Source: a virus
DNA length: 64,000 nucleotides
Direction: 5' to 3' (one strand)
Virus genome (UHGV): UHGV-0242533
The notes beneath the pieces were generated by a model. The model saw only the letters and a list, made by a program, of their open reading frames with translations, searched no databases and was not told the origin of the DNA. Below, piece by piece: positions 10,758 to 15,887 of the stretch. The stretch's first letter is position 1. The number at the start of each line of letters is the position of its first letter. Position numbers and translations under genes: made by a program.

Positions 10758-11054
10758 ATGACTTTAGAAGTATATAAATTCCTTTTTGTAAGCTGTTTAA
10801 CTATCAGCGTTATAGGATTTATTGTTCTCAGAAACAAAGCAGCAAGCTGGGAGAGAATGTATAAATCTCTAGTACGAGTAGATGAGATGTATAATGAGAA
10901 GGTTAAAGCAACTCTTAACGATCTTATCATGCAAGTTGAAGACAGAAACAAGCGTCTTCAGAATCTCAACCATGAAGTATTACGCCTTGCTCGTGCTAAT
11001 GAAGACTTGCGAGTGGCTATTGCTAAGCAGCAGGAGGTTAATAGTGAAGCATGA
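10758..11054 (+). CDS. membrane-anchored coiled-coil protein (98 aa)
   Basis: N-terminal hydrophobic segment then heptad-like region. Confidence 0.6.
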   Translation: MTLEVYKFLFVSCLTISVIGFIVLRNKAASWERMYKSLVRVDEMYNEKVKATLNDLIMQVEDRNKRLQNLNHEVLRLARANEDLRVAIAKQQEVNSEA

Positions 11055-11301
11055 TATCAATACAGCACCTGTGGTTAAGCAGCTTAAAGACCTAAGAGTG
11101 GGGGATGTTTTTGAAACTGTACCACATAAGAATAAGTTGTATCTTGTAGTAAAACTTGATTCTTCAACTGTTTATCAAGCCCAATGGAAACCTGATAAAA
11201 AGGTAGTAGTAGATCTTACTTCAGATAAAGTAACAATGTTGGGAAAAGATACTGTTGTTCAGATAGTTGATAATGTTCGTCTTACTAATAAGGTGGATTA
11301 A
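11044..11301 (+). CDS. small paralogous-family protein (member 1, GDVF motif)
   Basis: GTG start with AGGAGG RBS; L-x-x-L-x-x-GDVF-x-x-hydrophobic core shared with six other ORFs. Confidence 0.6.
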   Translation: MKHDINTAPVVKQLKDLRVGDVFETVPHKNKLYLVVKLDSSTVYQAQWKPDKKVVVDLTSDKVTMLGKDTVVQIVDNVRLTNKVD

Positions 11302-11303
11302 CA

Positions 11304-11537
11304 GTGAAAGTCAATATTAAGCATGATCATACAACGATTCGCTTAACTAACATGAAGCCTGGAGTTTTGTTTTCTTTCCGAGGCATTCTTTATATCAGAA
11401 CAGATTCCACATCTGACTATCATGTTAAATGTGTTAATGTGGTATCCGGAACACTGACCGGTATCAACCGAGATGAAATCTGCCAAGTACGCAGCGATCT
11501 CCACATAACTAACATAGAGACTAAAGATGAAGATTGA
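11304..11537 (+). CDS. small paralogous-family protein (member 2)
   Basis: Family motifs (G-V-L-F, C-V-N-V-x-S-G). Confidence 0.55.
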   Translation: MKVNIKHDHTTIRLTNMKPGVLFSFRGILYIRTDSTSDYHVKCVNVVSGTLTGINRDEICQVRSDLHITNIETKDED

Positions 11538-11778
11538 TCTTGAGTTTAAGAATCCAGAGCTGAAAGTGGGTGATTTGAAACTTGGAGATGTATTCCAAGT
11601 GAAGGCAACATGTATTGACCATTACATGATTGTCCAGCTATACACACCACATGTGTCAGAGACTGATCTTCGGGAGGGTTGTGTGGTTCTTAGTTTACGT
11701 ACTAATCAAGTGATGAAACTAGACTCAAACTTACCTGTTTCGGTTATCCATAATGTAGTAATTACCAATAAAGGTTAA
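11527..11778 (+). CDS. small paralogous-family protein (member 3)
   Basis: LKLGDVFQV motif. Confidence 0.6.
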   Translation: MKIDLEFKNPELKVGDLKLGDVFQVKATCIDHYMIVQLYTPHVSETDLREGCVVLSLRTNQVMKLDSNLPVSVIHNVVITNKG

Positions 11779-11780
11779 TT

Positions 11781-12101
11781 ATGTCAGTGTCCACTCGAAT
11801 AACCTGTAAGCCTAAAGTGAGTATTCGTGCACAGCTTCAAAACTGTACAGGGGTAGTTCACTTGGAGTTTGAACACAGTGGAAGTCGGTATAACGAAGGA
11901 TTCACCGTAACCATCACCTCTGCATGGTTTAATTTGGTTCTCCTTCCTGATGAGGTATGCGCTGCAATTGGTGGTGTTAAGAAGGGTAGTTTAAACCTTA
12001 TGTCAACCCCTGTAGGAAATGAATTGCTTTCTCTGGTTCAGAAAGGCGTATATAAAATGAACCTTATGTTAGATGCAATTACTGAAGAGAGTAAGGAGTG
12101 A
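11781..12101 (+). CDS. hypothetical protein (106 aa)
   Basis: ORF. Confidence 0.55.
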   Translation: MSVSTRITCKPKVSIRAQLQNCTGVVHLEFEHSGSRYNEGFTVTITSAWFNLVLLPDEVCAAIGGVKKGSLNLMSTPVGNELLSLVQKGVYKMNLMLDAITEESKE

Positions 12102-12105
12102 TTAA

Positions 12106-12324
12106 GTGGAAATTAAAGTAGTTGATTATCCTAAATATGCAAATGCAGAAGACGTTAAAGGTGGTGATGTTTTCTCTTACGATAGACGTTTCTGGCTGAT
12201 GTTAGAAGATAAAACTCCTGATGGTTTGTGTAAGGCCGCCGATCTGAACAGTGGTTCTGTTGAAGTCTTTGGTCTATCAACAACTGTTATGCCACGTCCT
12301 GATCTGTGTTTATCCCAAAAGTAA
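12106..12324 (+). CDS. small paralogous-family protein (member 4)
   Basis: VKGGDVFSYDRRFWLML; DLNSGSV. Confidence 0.6.
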   Translation: MEIKVVDYPKYANAEDVKGGDVFSYDRRFWLMLEDKTPDGLCKAADLNSGSVEVFGLSTTVMPRPDLCLSQK

Positions 12325-12333
12325 CACCGACTT

Positions 12334-12436
12334 ATAGCCCTTGTGTTTATCAGAGGGCTATGTGAGGGTGTTCCTCATTAACTTATTAATTCAGGCATAT
12401 GCCACACCGCTAGGGAGAGCTTGCTCGAACATCCGG
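12334..12436 (+). promoter_or_regulatory. conserved intergenic element A (hairpin ATAGCCC/GGGCTAT + TGTGAG, then GCTAGGGAGAG...CTCGAACATCCG block)
   Basis: Matches element B at 16583-16692 with a compensatory change in the internal stem (GAGC/GCTC versus GAGG/CCTC). Confidence 0.5.
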
Positions 12437-13878: not shown

Positions 13879-13887
13879 GGAACTTAT

Positions 13888-14109
13888 ATGAAACTAGACT
13901 CTAAGCAGTCACTTAAAACCGTTGAGCTGTCCACGCTGCCAAACGGAAGTATTTTTGGTCATGATAAACACTTCTGGATTAAAACAGACATCATAGACGA
14001 TGGATATATCACCTGTGTCAATCTTTGGAACGGCTCAGTGGATGGCTATCGCCCTAGCACAAAGGTGGTACCTCAGCCCGATGCAAAGGCTATAGGTTTA
14101 GTTTACTAA
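13888..14109 (+). CDS. small paralogous-family protein (member 5)
   Basis: LPNGSIFGHDKHFWIKTD; CVNLWNGSV. Confidence 0.6.
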   Translation: MKLDSKQSLKTVELSTLPNGSIFGHDKHFWIKTDIIDDGYITCVNLWNGSVDGYRPSTKVVPQPDAKAIGLVY

Positions 14110-14118
14110 GGAGCCTGT

Positions 14119-14292
14119 ATGAGTTGTTTTGGTGGCGGTGAAATAGACGACGATTATGACATGGAATCTAACGGCACATGTCCTGACTGTGGGTGCGAAA
14201 CATTTGATGGAGTGTCAGTATATCCTACCTGTAGTTATTCACCAGTGATCTGTAAAACATGTGGAGATCAACCTTGTGATGAGTCTTGTTAG
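14119..14292 (+). CDS. Cys-rich small protein (57 aa)
   Basis: Not in ORF track; ATG 14119 with AAGGAG RBS; CPDCGC...C...CKTCGDQPC. Confidence 0.5.
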   Translation: MSCFGGGEIDDDYDMESNGTCPDCGCETFDGVSVYPTCSYSPVICKTCGDQPCDESC

Positions 14293-14521
14293 TGTGTTAA
14301 TAGCCTATCTGATAGGATCAGTAGTATCAGGTGTTCTGATTAAGATTATAGATGTTAAAGGAAATCAGTGTTTCCGAGGTTGGGATGGTGAGCCAGACCT
14401 TGGAAAGATAGCAGCTATGGTTTTCTTGTGGCCTATTATTGCTGTACTATTTATAGCACTCGTAGCATGGGCTGCTCTTTGGGATTTCATCCTTCCTAAC
14501 AAAAAGTATGAGGACTCATGA
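14279..14521 (+). CDS. two-TM small membrane protein
   Basis: Two hydrophobic segments; start ambiguous (GTG 14261/14276 or ATG 14279). Confidence 0.5.
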   Translation: MSLVSVLIAYLIGSVVSGVLIKIIDVKGNQCFRGWDGEPDLGKIAAMVFLWPIIAVLFIALVAWAALWDFILPNKKYEDS

Positions 14522-14939
14522 CTAAAGAATTTTTAGAGTGGTTTGGTGATACCTTCAAAGAGTATCTATTCTCTCCAGAAGACTTTGAAGAACTGAAAAC
14601 CTACACTTGGTTGGCTTGGAGAGATAGCCGACGAGAGATGAATAAGTAATATCGTGAAGGATTCTTACGAGAGTCCTTTGAGATAGGACTTCAGATCTCC
14701 TATCAAACTAACATTCATGTAACTAGCCCATAAGGGCGTTACCCTTTAATAACCCAGCCCACTAAGGGGGCGGGAGTTTAGTGCTGGATTAGCATAACGC
14801 TTATTCCTACAAAGGCAACCGATTGTTAGATCTTACATGCAATATTAATTAATAGGATAAGGGAGGATTCGTCCCCTCCCCCTATTTTATTGAATCTTTA
14901 TCTAAGCAAGTCTTATATAAATGTTTAATTGGAGGATGT

Positions 14940-15251
14940 ATGAAAGCACGAAGAACTATATGGACTCCGATGCAGATTGAAAATCTTCGGAGACTAATCA
15001 AAGAGTACTCGGTTCAAGAGGTTGCTCAGATTATGAATGTAACGGAGAATGCAGTTAACACAGCTTGCACTAAATTCGGGATATCAAGAGCTTCAATCCG
15101 AGTTAAATGGTCTGAAGAAGAAGACCAGTTCCTTATCCGTAATGCTGGGTTCATGTCTATTCAGAGAATGGCTGACATGCTCGGTAGAAGTTATGCTGCT
15201 GTACAGAACAGGGCATGTATGCACCTTAATATTAGCCTGAAACTTAAATAG
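14940..15251 (+). CDS. DNA-binding protein with two tandem helix-turn-helix-like repeats
   Basis: Two W-x(8)-L...I/MAxxLG...AV-x-x-R repeats; RBS GGAGGA. Confidence 0.6.
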   Translation: MKARRTIWTPMQIENLRRLIKEYSVQEVAQIMNVTENAVNTACTKFGISRASIRVKWSEEEDQFLIRNAGFMSIQRMADMLGRSYAAVQNRACMHLNISLKLK

Positions 15252-15259
15252 GAATCAAG

Positions 15260-15490
15260 ATGAATTTTGAGCTAGTACCAAAAAGCAAAACACCCTCCAA
15301 GACTTTTTCTGACTTGGAGAATGGAGATGTTTTTCGTTTTACTGGTGACAATGTGGTCCCTAAATTCTGGATAAAAACAGGGGAACATTCTGCAATGTGT
15401 GTTCGGAACTCTAAAGATATTTTCTTTCCGGTCCCTCTGTCCAATACTGTTGATCTGTTCGAATCTAAACTTATTATTCAGGGTAAATAG
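15260..15490 (+). CDS. small paralogous-family protein (member 6)
   Basis: LENGDVFRF...KFWIKT. Confidence 0.6.
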   Translation: MNFELVPKSKTPSKTFSDLENGDVFRFTGDNVVPKFWIKTGEHSAMCVRNSKDIFFPVPLSNTVDLFESKLIIQGK

Positions 15491-15491
15491 T

Positions 15492-15887
15492 ATGAAGATT
15501 ACTCACAAGAAAGAAGAAGTGACTACGGTTGATCTCAACTCACTTCCCAGCGGAACTGTGTTTAAGTTTCCTGACAATGCAACCCTGTATGTCAAAGGGT
15601 CTGTGTCTGCAAGCCCAAACGTTACCATCAACTCTGACAGAAGCACCATTAATATTAAAGTTAAGCATAAGAAAGAGAACATCCTCAGGGTTATGGATTT
15701 ATTCAGAGCCGACGTCTTTACTTTAAAACAGTGTCCAACTTCCCATACCTACATGCTAACGAACCCGAGCAATGGTCTTAAGCCCGCTGGGGCGGTTAAT
15801 CTGGGAACTGGAGAACTTCGGACAATTGCTGGTGATATGGTTGTTGATGAGAAGTTTAGTAAAGTCGAAATGATCTTAACTCCTTAG
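15492..15887 (+). CDS. paralogous-family protein (member 7, C-terminally extended)
   Basis: LPSGTVFKF N-terminal module then about 70 extra residues. Confidence 0.55.
   Translation: MKITHKKEEVTTVDLNSLPSGTVFKFPDNATLYVKGSVSASPNVTINSDRSTINIKVKHKKENILRVMDLFRADVFTLKQCPTSHTYMLTNPSNGLKPAGAVNLGTGELRTIAGDMVVDEKFSKVEMILTP

What the first reader, a model, noticed from the sequence alone, without database searches (positions are those of the whole stretch)
11044..15887. Seven-member family of small paralogous early proteins
ORFs at 11044, 11304, 11527, 12106, 13888, 15260 and 15492 share a module (L-x-x-L-x-x-G-D/S-V/I-F then W/Y-I/L-K-T/L then C-V/A-N/D-L-x-S/G-G-S-V) but are otherwise divergent. Diversified multi-copy small genes in a phage early region are typical of host-factor inhibitors or anti-defence proteins.
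Basis: seen in the sequence. Interest (0 to 1): 0.6.

Follow-up and report, generated by a model that had tools for sequence, protein, structure and literature searches.

The report
Small beta-barrel early phage protein family
Seven neighbouring small genes in the early region of this phiEco32-like coliphage are real, anciently duplicated copies of one roughly 75-residue SH3-like beta-barrel protein, which belongs to a widespread phage family that nobody has characterised, so what it does is still a guess.

Summary
All seven ORFs exist at the stated coordinates. Each is recognised by a profile built without its own orthologues (18-35 bits; 0 of 2000 shuffles reach the score). A profile made only of distant metagenomic relatives picks out exactly these ORFs among the window's 645.

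The window is a Kuravirus (phiEco32-like podophage). Its relatives carry 5-10 copies each, in 15 orthogroups. Each orthogroup is under purifying selection (dN/dS 0.05-0.25), but gene content varies between phages.

AlphaFold2 predicts a five-stranded SH3/Tudor/KOW-like barrel.

The seventh "member" (15492-15887) is an in-frame fusion of two paralogues, made by a 352-bp deletion.

The family has no Pfam, NCBIfam or PDB match and is split over at least six "unknown function" PHROGs. It has about 650 clusters at 50% identity, including N4 gp21, PaP3 ORF.65 and LUZ24 gp7. Basic repeats of the same type occur in Bacteroidota SprT-like proteins.

No function was shown here. My best inference is a shared scaffold with paralogue-specific surfaces that bind different host or defence targets. 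LUZ24 gp7 was not growth-inhibitory in a published screen, which argues against a host-killing role. Interest is moderate.

The parts
11044..11301 (+). Member A, 85 aa, GTG start, pI 9.2. Its orthogroup is present in only 5 of 10 Kuravirus loci compared. It carries the long beta2-beta3 insertion shared with C.
   Evidence: ORF and AGGAGG Shine-Dalgarno. PHROG 9955 at 1e-13, with cross-hits to 16423 and 7832. Leave-own-group-out 26.9 bits, 0/2000 shuffles. hhalign A-C 97%, A-B 81%. Distant profile A4 4e-9. Presence/absence.
11304..11537 (+). Member B, 77 aa, GTG start. Its 3' end overlaps the start of C.
   Evidence: PHROG 16423 at 5e-33, with cross-hits to 6570, 7431 and 7832. Leave-out 24.8 bits, 0/2000. 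hhalign B-E 94%. A4 profile 2e-16. dN/dS 0.19.
11527..11778 (+). Member C, 83 aa, with the beta2-beta3 insertion. It is duplicated again in NJ01 and Ptacy1479.
   Evidence: PHROG 9955 at 8e-41. Leave-out 18.3 bits, 0/2000. A4 profile 4e-11. Extra copies in NJ01 and Ptacy1479. dN/dS 0.25.
12106..12324 (+). Member D, 72 aa, GTG start, pI 4.7. It is the closest paralogue of E (33% identity). A non-member DUF7247 gene (11781-12101) separates it from C.
   Evidence: PHROG 6570 at 8e-32. blastp D-E 33%. hhalign D-E 96%. Leave-out 22.6 bits. A4 profile 5e-15. DUF7247.
13888..14109 (+). Member E, 73 aa, the most consensus-like copy and the one used for the structure model. It stands alone between a lipoprotein module and Cys-rich or membrane ORFs.
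15260..15490 (+). Member F, 76 aa, the most divergent copy. Sequence similarity is confined to the N-terminal half. In other Kuraviruses a different family member (orthogroup g12) occupies the same slot after the HTH regulator gene.
   Evidence: PHROG 10911 at 7e-38, cross-hit to 6570 at 1e-4. Leave-out 26.0 bits over profile positions 5-38. A4 profile 6e-7. AlphaFold2 pLDDT 73.7 with the same strand order. BFVD hits overlap those of E. F and g12 are mutually exclusive.
15492..15641 (+). G, N-terminal part (residues 1-50): a truncated module derived from the phi32_97 orthogroup. It keeps the strands beta1-beta2 and lacks the rest of the barrel.
   Evidence: DNA alignment with phiEco32 is near-identical up to 15641, followed by a 352-bp gap. 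PHROG 7832 matches residues 1-51. Leave-out 27.0 bits over profile positions 1-39.
15642..15887 (+). G, C-terminal part (residues 51-131): a complete module from the phi32_95 orthogroup, joined in frame at its second codon. The whole ORF 15492-15887 therefore encodes a 131-aa chimera, and the phi32_96 orthologue is missing from this phage.
   Evidence: Alignment with phiEco32. PHROG 12612 matches residues 51-131 at 2e-28. Leave-out 19.8 bits. A4 profile 7e-10. The exact 131-aa protein occurs on only 2 contigs, and no cultured phage record spans the junction.
3849..6084 (+). Context, inferred: a cluster of six near-consensus sigma-70 promoter-like sites (10-12 of 12 matches), all on the + strand and upstream of the co-oriented early genes. 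These are the likely early promoters that drive transcription into the family.
   Evidence: Consensus scan. It agrees with the early promoters described for phiEco32 and SU10 near the genome end (PMC4281155). Not tested functionally.

Best explanation
The seven ORFs are genuine protein-coding paralogues: eight modules, one of them truncated and fused. They belong to a roughly 70-85-residue single-domain family that folds as a five-stranded SH3/Tudor/KOW-like small beta-barrel.

- L-x-x-L-x-x-G-D-V-F is the N-terminal turn plus beta1;
- aromatic-I/L-K-T is beta2;
- C-V-N-L is beta3;
- G-S-V is the turn plus beta4.

The copies arose by old duplications within the early region of phiEco32-like (Gordonclarkvirinae) phages. 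They are probably transcribed by host sigma-70 RNA polymerase soon after infection.

Inferred mechanism: each paralogue keeps the same barrel but presents its own conserved surface, so each binds a different partner. The partner is most probably a host protein, possibly a component of an anti-phage defence system, whose activity is blocked or redirected without killing the cell. The set would then act as an accessory toolkit that is reshuffled between related phages.

Shown: homology, fold prediction, purifying selection, and copy-number and content variation. Taken from the literature on close relatives: early expression. Inferred: that the proteins bind partners, and which partners.
For: Homology.
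- Leave-one-out and leave-orthogroup-out HMMs detect every member.
- PHROG profiles cross-hit one another.
- hhalign links the orthologue profiles in a chain C-A-B-E-D at 81-97%, and E-F at 59%.
- The distant-homologue profile A4 hits only these ORFs in the window.

Real genes.
- Shine-Dalgarno sites are present.
- Orthologues occur in more than 70 phage records.
- dN/dS is 0.05-0.25 in all 11 orthogroups tested.

Fold.
- The AlphaFold2 model of E has pLDDT 85.7 and that of F 73.7.

Shared scaffold with paralogue-specific surface.
- Only about 8 positions are shared between orthogroups (M1, K2, L17, G20, F23, V44, L46, G49, V60).
- Entropy is about 0.4 bit within orthogroups and 2-3 bits between them.
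- pI ranges from 4.7 to 9.3.

Accessory behaviour.
- Related phages carry 5-10 copies each, in 15 orthogroups with patchy presence.
- F and g12 replace each other at one slot.
- A deletion fused two paralogues in this phage.

Protein binding rather than nucleic-acid binding.
- The median pI of 126 distant members is 5.2, and 67% are acidic.

Early class.
- PMC8948821 and PMC4281155 describe the equivalent region as early.
- Promoter-like sites lie upstream.

Non-lethal role.
- LUZ24 gp7 is a member (30.9 bits against A4). It was among 13 early proteins tested and was not one of the four that inhibited growth (PMC4635203).

An unexplained phenotype in this phage group.
- Gordonclarkvirinae are reported as remarkably RM-resistant without known restriction inhibitors or known covalent genome modification pathways (PMC11990801).
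Against: - No partner, binding or phenotype is known for any member. The functional part rests on fold type, genomic position and evolutionary pattern only.
- SH3-like barrels also bind nucleic acids. The only cellular relatives found are strongly basic repeats (pI 9.4-9.8) in Bacteroidota SprT-like proteins, and members A and G are basic (pI 9.2-9.3).
- Gene-wide purifying selection is not the signature of an ongoing arms race, although site-specific positive selection was not tested.
- BASEL authors suggest a DNA modification, not a protein inhibitor, as the likely reason for RM resistance.
- The A4 profile was assembled from hits of the Kuravirus profile, so it is not fully independent.
- The AlphaFold2 model of F used an alignment that contained the other paralogues.
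Confidence: 0.5

Rival explanations
1. The proteins are nucleic-acid-binding modules of the KOW, Tudor or Sso7d type. They would act on DNA or RNA, or on the transcription and translation machinery, to regulate phage or host gene expression rather than inhibit assorted host proteins.
For: - The same domain type occurs as 1-5 basic repeats (pI 9.4-9.8) after a SprT-like metalloprotease domain in Bacteroidota. In that architecture a DNA-binding role is plausible.
- Members A and G have pI 9.2-9.3.
- An HTH regulator gene sits inside the cluster at 14940-15251.
Against: - Most members are neutral or acidic. Window members B, C, D and E have pI 4.7-6.9. The distant family has median pI 5.2 and 67% of its members are below pI 6.
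- There is no Pfam KOW, Tudor or EFP match for the window members.
- No basic patch is conserved across paralogues.
Confidence: 0.2
2. The paralogues serve the phage's own processes rather than targeting the host. They could, for example, be adaptors or chaperones for replication, nucleotide metabolism or early assembly steps.
For: - Selection on each orthogroup is purifying.
- Several orthogroups (B, C, D, E, G2) are present in nearly all Kuravirus loci compared.
- Single-copy relatives sit in N4 (gp21) next to an annotated endonuclease (gp22) and an ATPase gene (gp24).
- The LUZ24 relative is not toxic.
Against: - The genes lie in the most variable, host-takeover part of the genome, not among the conserved replication or structural genes (PMC8948821).
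- Content varies between close relatives, and one copy is lost here without replacement.
- None was among the SU10 proteins in the proteomics-table fragment returned by the text search of the SU10 paper; the full table was not inspected, so this is only suggestive.
Confidence: 0.2
3. The shared motif is chance or compositional, or the ORFs are not real genes.
For: - Pairwise identity between paralogues is only 12-35%.
- Some hhalign pairs are weak, for example G2 against most others at below 35% probability.
- F matches only over its N-terminal half.
Against: - 0 of 2000 shuffles reach the real scores for any of the eight modules.
- The left-out member is always the top hit among 645 ORFs.
- The independent-lineage profile A4 finds only these ORFs.
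- dN/dS is well below 1.
- Confident models with a common fold were obtained.
Confidence: 0.01

Closest known systems
PHROGs 6570, 9955, 16423, 10911, 12612 and 7832 (also 7431 and 8365), all annotated 'unknown function'
   Same: Each window member matches one of these at E from 1e-13 to 1e-41, and the profiles cross-hit one another. These are the existing database homes of the proteins.
   Different: PHROGs keeps them as separate families. The evidence here joins them into one superfamily with a common fold. None has a function or a Pfam, NCBIfam or PDB entry.
N4 gp21, PaP3 ORF.65 and LUZ24 gp7 (uncharacterised small proteins of other virulent podophages; the LUZ24 and PaP3 genes lie in the early region)
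   Same: - Their lengths are similar (74-79 aa).
- They are detectable by sequence with the family profile: N4 gp21 at 53.9 bits, PaP3 ORF.65 at 26.8 bits and LUZ24 gp7 at 30.9 bits.
- Foldseek TM-scores are about 0.75 for N4 gp21 and PaP3 ORF.65.
- The LUZ24 and PaP3 genes are co-oriented with the small early ORFs of those phages.
   Different: - They are single-copy in the stretches examined, whereas Kuraviruses carry 5-10 copies.
- The hosts and phage families differ.
- LUZ24 gp7 was tested and is not growth-inhibitory (PMC4635203). None of the window's proteins has been tested.
SH3-like small beta-barrel folds (SH3, Tudor, KOW and EF-P domain I, DtxR C-terminal domain, FeoA, VapX antitoxin, UvrD/PcrA/CarD RNA-polymerase-binding Tudor-like domains)
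   Different: - There is no Pfam hit to any of these families.
- Hallmark features such as the KOW motif or a Tudor aromatic cage are not among the conserved positions.
- This is a resemblance of fold class, not demonstrated membership.
C-terminal repeats of Bacteroidota SprT-like metalloproteases (for example the Tenacibaculum MAG protein P0111 and the Aureibacter tunicatorum SprT-like protein)
   Different: - They are cellular.
- They are tandemly repeated inside one polypeptide and fused to a protease domain.
- They are strongly basic (pI 9.4-9.8), whereas the phage proteins are free-standing and mostly acidic or neutral.
Small early host-takeover and anti-defence proteins of virulent phages (for example LUZ24 Mip/gp4, which inhibits MvaT; T7 Ocr and Gp2, recalled from my own knowledge)
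   Same: They share genomic position (early, sigma-70-driven), small size, lack of enzymatic motifs and lineage-specific distribution.
   Different: - There is no sequence or fold relationship.
- Those proteins have demonstrated targets, and these have none.
- A multi-copy family on one scaffold is not the usual picture for those examples.

Membership tests
Kuravirus/phage small beta-barrel early-protein superfamily (PHROGs 6570/9955/16423/10911/12612/7832) | Significant match to a family profile that excludes the protein's own orthologues | tested here: met
   All 8 modules score 18-35 bits and 0/2000 shuffles reach that score. iE ranges from 1e-8 to 4e-4 against 1419 ORFs. The A4 profile of distant members hits all modules and no other window ORF.
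Kuravirus/phage small beta-barrel early-protein superfamily (PHROGs 6570/9955/16423/10911/12612/7832) | Free-standing single domain of about 68-85 aa with the full five-strand barrel | tested here: inconclusive
   Met for A-F, which are 72-85 aa, with models for E and F. Not met for G, a 131-aa chimera of a half module and a full module. Structures of A-D and G were not modelled.
Kuravirus/phage small beta-barrel early-protein superfamily (PHROGs 6570/9955/16423/10911/12612/7832) | Located in the co-oriented early gene cluster and conserved as a coding sequence | tested here: met
   Synteny with phiEco32, NJ01, ES17, MN03 and others. dN/dS 0.05-0.25. Early class taken from the literature on phiEco32 and SU10. 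Expression of this phage's own genes was not measured.
SH3-like barrel fold class | Five-stranded, partly open beta-barrel of about 60 residues, recognised by structure comparison | tested here: met
   [not shown]
KOW / EF-P N-terminal / Tudor domain families (homologous membership) | Match to the Pfam models or to the family-specific sequence motifs | tested here: not met
   No Pfam match for the seven proteins at E<=1, apart from two sub-threshold hits to unrelated models. Among 106 distant members, EFP_N appears once at E=0.1. A profile search of PDB sequences finds nothing below E=0.027.
Acidic DNA-mimic anti-restriction proteins (Ocr/ArdA type) | Strongly acidic protein (pI about 4 or lower) with a surface charge pattern that mimics DNA | tested here: not met
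   pI of the seven is 4.7-9.3, with net charge from -3.5 to +3.8. The fold is a small beta-barrel, not the elongated helical Ocr/ArdA architecture (the Ocr/ArdA fold is from my own knowledge).
Anti-defence proteins (functional class) | Demonstrated inhibition of a bacterial defence system | not testable with these tools
No literature on any member was found. Only circumstantial support exists: early accessory locus and an RM-resistant phage group.
Growth-inhibitory host shut-off proteins (functional class) | Expression alone inhibits host growth | not tested
   Not tested for the window's proteins. The distant member LUZ24 gp7 was tested in P. aeruginosa and was not among the four inhibitory proteins (PMC4635203).

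The most novel reading that the evidence does not exclude
These genes are the visible tip of an unrecognised superfamily of phage mini-SH3 proteins. The superfamily has about 650 clusters at 50% identity, has no Pfam entry and includes N4 gp21 and LUZ24 gp7. Kuraviruses would have expanded it into a 7-10-member toolkit in which each paralogue neutralises a different host defence or regulatory protein. This would help explain why Gordonclarkvirinae resist nearly all tested RM and defence systems.
Probability: 0.2. Interest if true: 0.7.

Novelty: new member of a known kind. Interest (0 to 1): 0.4.

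Why it matters
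Small early phage ORFs are where most host-takeover and anti-defence functions have been found, yet they are largely unannotated.

Linking at least six separate "unknown" PHROGs, N4 gp21, LUZ24 gp7, PaP3 ORF.65 and a cellular SprT-associated repeat into one beta-barrel superfamily has practical uses:
- it gives a single handle, a profile and a fold, for about 650 sequence clusters;
- it corrects spurious database names such as "DNA helicase" and "endolysin";
- it nominates a defined set of 7-10 proteins per phage for pull-down and defence-panel screens in a therapeutically used phage group (ES17 and the BASEL phages Bas86-93) whose resistance to restriction is unexplained.

If the proteins turn out to have ordinary regulatory roles, the result is still a tidy example of an old lineage-specific expansion with ongoing gene loss, replacement and fusion.

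Tried and rejected
- Pfam, NCBIfam and PDB sequence searches gave no family for the seven proteins, for 106 distant members or for the profile. The DUF5475 and RibLong hits (E about 0.05) are below threshold and were discarded.
- The afdb50 fold library was not available.
- The search for related loci with the distant alignment failed because no stretch is conserved enough. Copy number in uncultured phages was therefore sampled on only two metagenomic contig types, which had one and two copies.
- tblastn with distant members or with the consensus found almost only Gordonclarkvirinae among cultured phages.
- The original phiEco32 papers (PMC2587145 and PMC3275717) are not held. Early-class assignment therefore rests on later papers that summarise them.
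- Literature searches for Kuravirus anti-defence, phiEco32 host takeover, N4 gp21 and the PHROG ids found no functional data.
- I considered whether the RNA-polymerase-binding protein gp79 of phiEco32 belongs to the family. No other window ORF matches the profile, so it does not by sequence.
- I considered the neighbouring ORFs 11781-12101 (DUF7247) and 12851-13102 as extra members. They are not.
- The long 'proteins' of 2140-3223 aa with 3-4 partial matches were not pursued. They may be run-together gene calls.

Full report
**What the window is.** Region 10500-16500 matches phiEco32-like podophages (genus Kuravirus, subfamily Gordonclarkvirinae) at 92-96% nucleotide identity. The best hits are FS2B, MN03, ES17 and phiEco32 itself. 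The finding lies in the rightward, co-oriented block of small genes. [quoted passage not shown] In SU10 the same block corresponds to early CDS 69-125 (PMC4281155), and the SU10 orthologue of member E is gp102. Six near-consensus sigma-70 promoter-like sites, one a perfect TTGACA-16-TATAAT, lie upstream at 3849-6084, all on the + strand.

**Check of the observation.** The seven ORFs exist exactly as listed. A (11044), B (11304) and D (12106) start with GTG, and most starts are preceded by a Shine-Dalgarno-like sequence. Pairwise identities are low, 12-35%. BLAST alone supports only A-C, B-E and D-E, so I used profiles.

- A profile of the other members always ranks the left-out member first among all 645 six-frame ORFs of at least 40 aa. 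E-values run from 1e-7 to 3e-3, against 0.16-2.9 for the best unrelated ORF.
- I collected the family from early regions of ten Kuravirus relatives and one Salmonella phage. That gave 91 modules in 15 orthogroups.
- A profile lacking a member's whole orthogroup still scores each of the eight window modules at 18-35 bits. None of 2000 composition-matched shuffles exceeds 12 bits.
- hhalign on orthologue profiles links C-A (97%), A-B (81%), B-E (94%), E-D (96%) and E-F (59%).
- The eight PHROG profiles involved cross-hit each other.
- A profile built only from distant, non-Kuravirus homologues (A4) hits exactly these ORFs and nothing else in the window at E<0.01. The values are E 1e-21, B 2e-16, D 5e-15, C 4e-11, G2 7e-10, A 4e-9, F 6e-7 and G1 7e-5.

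**Corrections to the description.** Only the F of 'GDVF' is invariant, and the G is present in 7 of 8 modules. F (15260) resembles the family by sequence only in its N-terminal half.

ORF G (15492-15887, 131 aa) is not one member. Alignment with phiEco32 shows a 352-bp deletion. It removes the 3' part of phi32_97, all of phi32_96 and the start codon of phi32_95, and it joins residues 1-50 of one paralogue in frame to residues 2-82 of another. The junction is at 15641|15642. The exact chimera is recorded on only two contigs, and no cultured phage record spans the junction. The window thus has seven genes carrying seven complete modules and one half module, and it lacks the phi32_96 orthogroup that every other Kuravirus compared retains.

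**What the proteins are.** AlphaFold2 on member E, with a 117-sequence family alignment, gives a confident model (pLDDT 85.7, pTM 0.72). It has five strands, at residues 22-25, 28-37, 40-45, 51-54 and 59-62, preceded by a short N-terminal element.

The model of the divergent member F is less confident (pLDDT 73.7) but has the same strand order. Its BFVD hits overlap those of E. One caveat applies: its input alignment included the other paralogues.

The proteins have negative hydropathy and no transmembrane character. Their pI ranges from 4.7 (D) to 9.2-9.3 (A, G).

**Evolutionary pattern.** Each orthogroup evolves under purifying selection. Pairwise Nei-Gojobori dN/dS is 0.05-0.25 in 11 groups, although some comparisons approach saturation of dS.

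Column by column, entropy within orthogroups averages about 0.4 bit, while between orthogroups it is 2-3 bits. The exceptions are about eight positions: M1, K2, L17, G20, F23, V44, L46, G49 and V60. Each paralogue therefore has its own conserved sequence on a common scaffold, which indicates old duplications followed by functional divergence.

Gene content is nevertheless fluid:
- phages carry 5-10 copies each;
- A is present in 5 of 10 Kuravirus loci;
- C is duplicated again in NJ01 and Ptacy1479;
- F and a different member (g12) replace each other at the same slot after the HTH regulator gene;
- this phage has the deletion-fusion.

**Wider distribution.** The word-indexed search found only Kuravirus-type contigs. 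The exhaustive profile search of 1.84 billion cluster representatives found 656 proteins at E<=1e-3. Nearly all of the 150 best hits listed are 60-100 aa and share the consensus MKI...L..L..GDVF...YY.KTD....VNL.TGE.....V......L.I. Some are two-domain proteins of 116-186 aa.

Recognisable members include N4 gp21 (53.9 bits), PaP3 ORF.65 (26.8 bits) and LUZ24 gp7 (30.9 bits). They are single-copy in the stretches examined. Two metagenomic contexts look like phage early regions, with one and two copies.

None of the proteins has a Pfam, NCBIfam or PDB-sequence match, and all PHROGs involved are 'unknown function'.

The same domain type also occurs in cellular proteins. Bacteroidota SprT-like metalloproteases carry one to five C-terminal repeats of it. 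Examples are a Tenacibaculum MAG protein and the Aureibacter tunicatorum SprT-like protein. In these proteins the repeats are strongly basic, pI 9.4-9.8.

**How it most likely works.** Nothing here demonstrates function. I take the following as shown or well supported: a real, expressed-as-protein family; an SH3-like interaction fold with no conserved polar or catalytic residue; paralogue-specific conserved surfaces; early, accessory genomic behaviour; and mostly neutral-to-acidic charge (the distant family has median pI 5.2 and 67% of members below pI 6).

From this I infer that the proteins are binding modules, each aimed at a different macromolecular partner. The partners are most probably host proteins, possibly components of defence systems, which would be modulated rather than used to kill the cell.

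Two pieces of literature bear on this. LUZ24 gp7, a family member, was one of 13 early proteins expressed in P. aeruginosa. It was not among the four that impaired growth (PMC4635203). Gordonclarkvirinae are reported as remarkably resistant to RM systems without known restriction inhibitors or known covalent genome modification pathways, although the authors favour an unidentified DNA modification (PMC11990801).

I put this reading at about 0.5.

**Rival readings.**
- A role inside the phage's own replication or assembly: about 0.2.
- Chance or non-genes: excluded.

**Comparison with what is known, and novelty.** The proteins are already in databases as hypothetical proteins, and some are mislabelled 'DNA helicase', 'endolysin' or 'polymerase'. 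I found no paper that notes their paralogy. The SU10 paper contains neither 'paralog' nor 'duplication', and the phiEco32 genome paper could not be read.

The kind of thing, a lineage-specific family of small early phage proteins on a common interaction fold, is familiar. New here are the unification of several PHROGs into one superfamily, its fold, its breadth, its links to N4 gp21, LUZ24 gp7 and the SprT repeats, and the chimeric gene in this phage.

I rate it a new member of a known kind, of moderate interest (0.4). The most novel reading still open is a defence-neutralising toolkit that would explain the group's broad resistance. I give that about 0.2 probability, and it would deserve about 0.7 interest if true.

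Noticed in passing
window 12325-12450 and 16569-16700 (also hairpins at 12600-12623, 14861-14880 and 16760-16777): Two intergenic regions of the early cluster share an element of about 120 nt. It consists of a hairpin, TATAGCC..GGGCTATGTGAG, followed about 50 nt later by GCTAGGGAGAG..CTCGAACATCCG. Terminator-like hairpins follow. There is no Rfam match. It could be a repeated terminator/promoter module or a small RNA that divides the early region into transcription units.
   Followed up: partly
window 9264-10058 (+): An early-region gene encodes a signal-peptide-like N-terminus, collagen triple-helix repeats (G-x-y) and a YadA-like membrane anchor (Pfam Collagen 2.5e-17, YadA_anchor 1.7e-19). 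This looks like a trimeric-autotransporter-like protein made by a lytic phage. Relatives annotate it variously as adhesin or tail protein.
   Followed up: partly
window 3849-6084 (+): A cluster of six sigma-70 promoter-like sites with 10-12 of 12 consensus matches, all on the + strand. One at 5880-5907 is a perfect TTGACA-16-TATAAT. They probably correspond to the early promoters described for phiEco32 and SU10.
   Followed up: partly
window 13283-13359 (+): tRNA-Arg (anticodon TCT) embedded among the early genes. It is conserved in relatives.
   Followed up: yes
relatives: L006 5142-5375 (IMEP8 gp111 'endolysin'), P0091 (EcoN5 'DNA helicase', 85 aa), BFVD A0A7L4XW47 (EcoN5 'Endolysin', 77 aa): Several members of this small-protein family carry plainly wrong product names in public records. 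In FS2B the orthologues of A and B are present in the DNA but not annotated (L011 1559-1798 and 1819-2022).
   Followed up: partly
L016 (PaP3) 5104-7656 versus L002 (NJ01) 11468 onwards and L005 12036 onwards: PaP3- and LUZ24-like Pseudomonas phages and Kuraviruses share not only a member of this family but also an amidoligase / COOH-NH2 ligase / glutamine amidotransferase gene cluster just downstream of their early regions.
   Followed up: no
window 12678-12854 and 14119-14292 (+): Two very small Cys-rich ORFs (58 and 57 aa) with paired CxxC-type motifs sit between family members. They are probable zinc-ribbon proteins and have no Pfam match.
   Followed up: no
L003 3109-3375 (Salmonella phage PKM.Hi.22.6): An ORF adjacent to a family member is repeatedly the best 'non-family' hit (iE from 8e-5 to 3e-2) in the leave-one-group-out searches. 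It is probably a further, more divergent member.
   Followed up: no
P0164, P0173 and P0248 (2140-3223 aa, from the exhaustive search): Very long predicted proteins contain 3-4 partial matches to the family. One also has weak Phage_attach and EFP_N hits. They may be run-together gene calls, for example from genomes with a reassigned stop codon, rather than real giant proteins.
   Followed up: no
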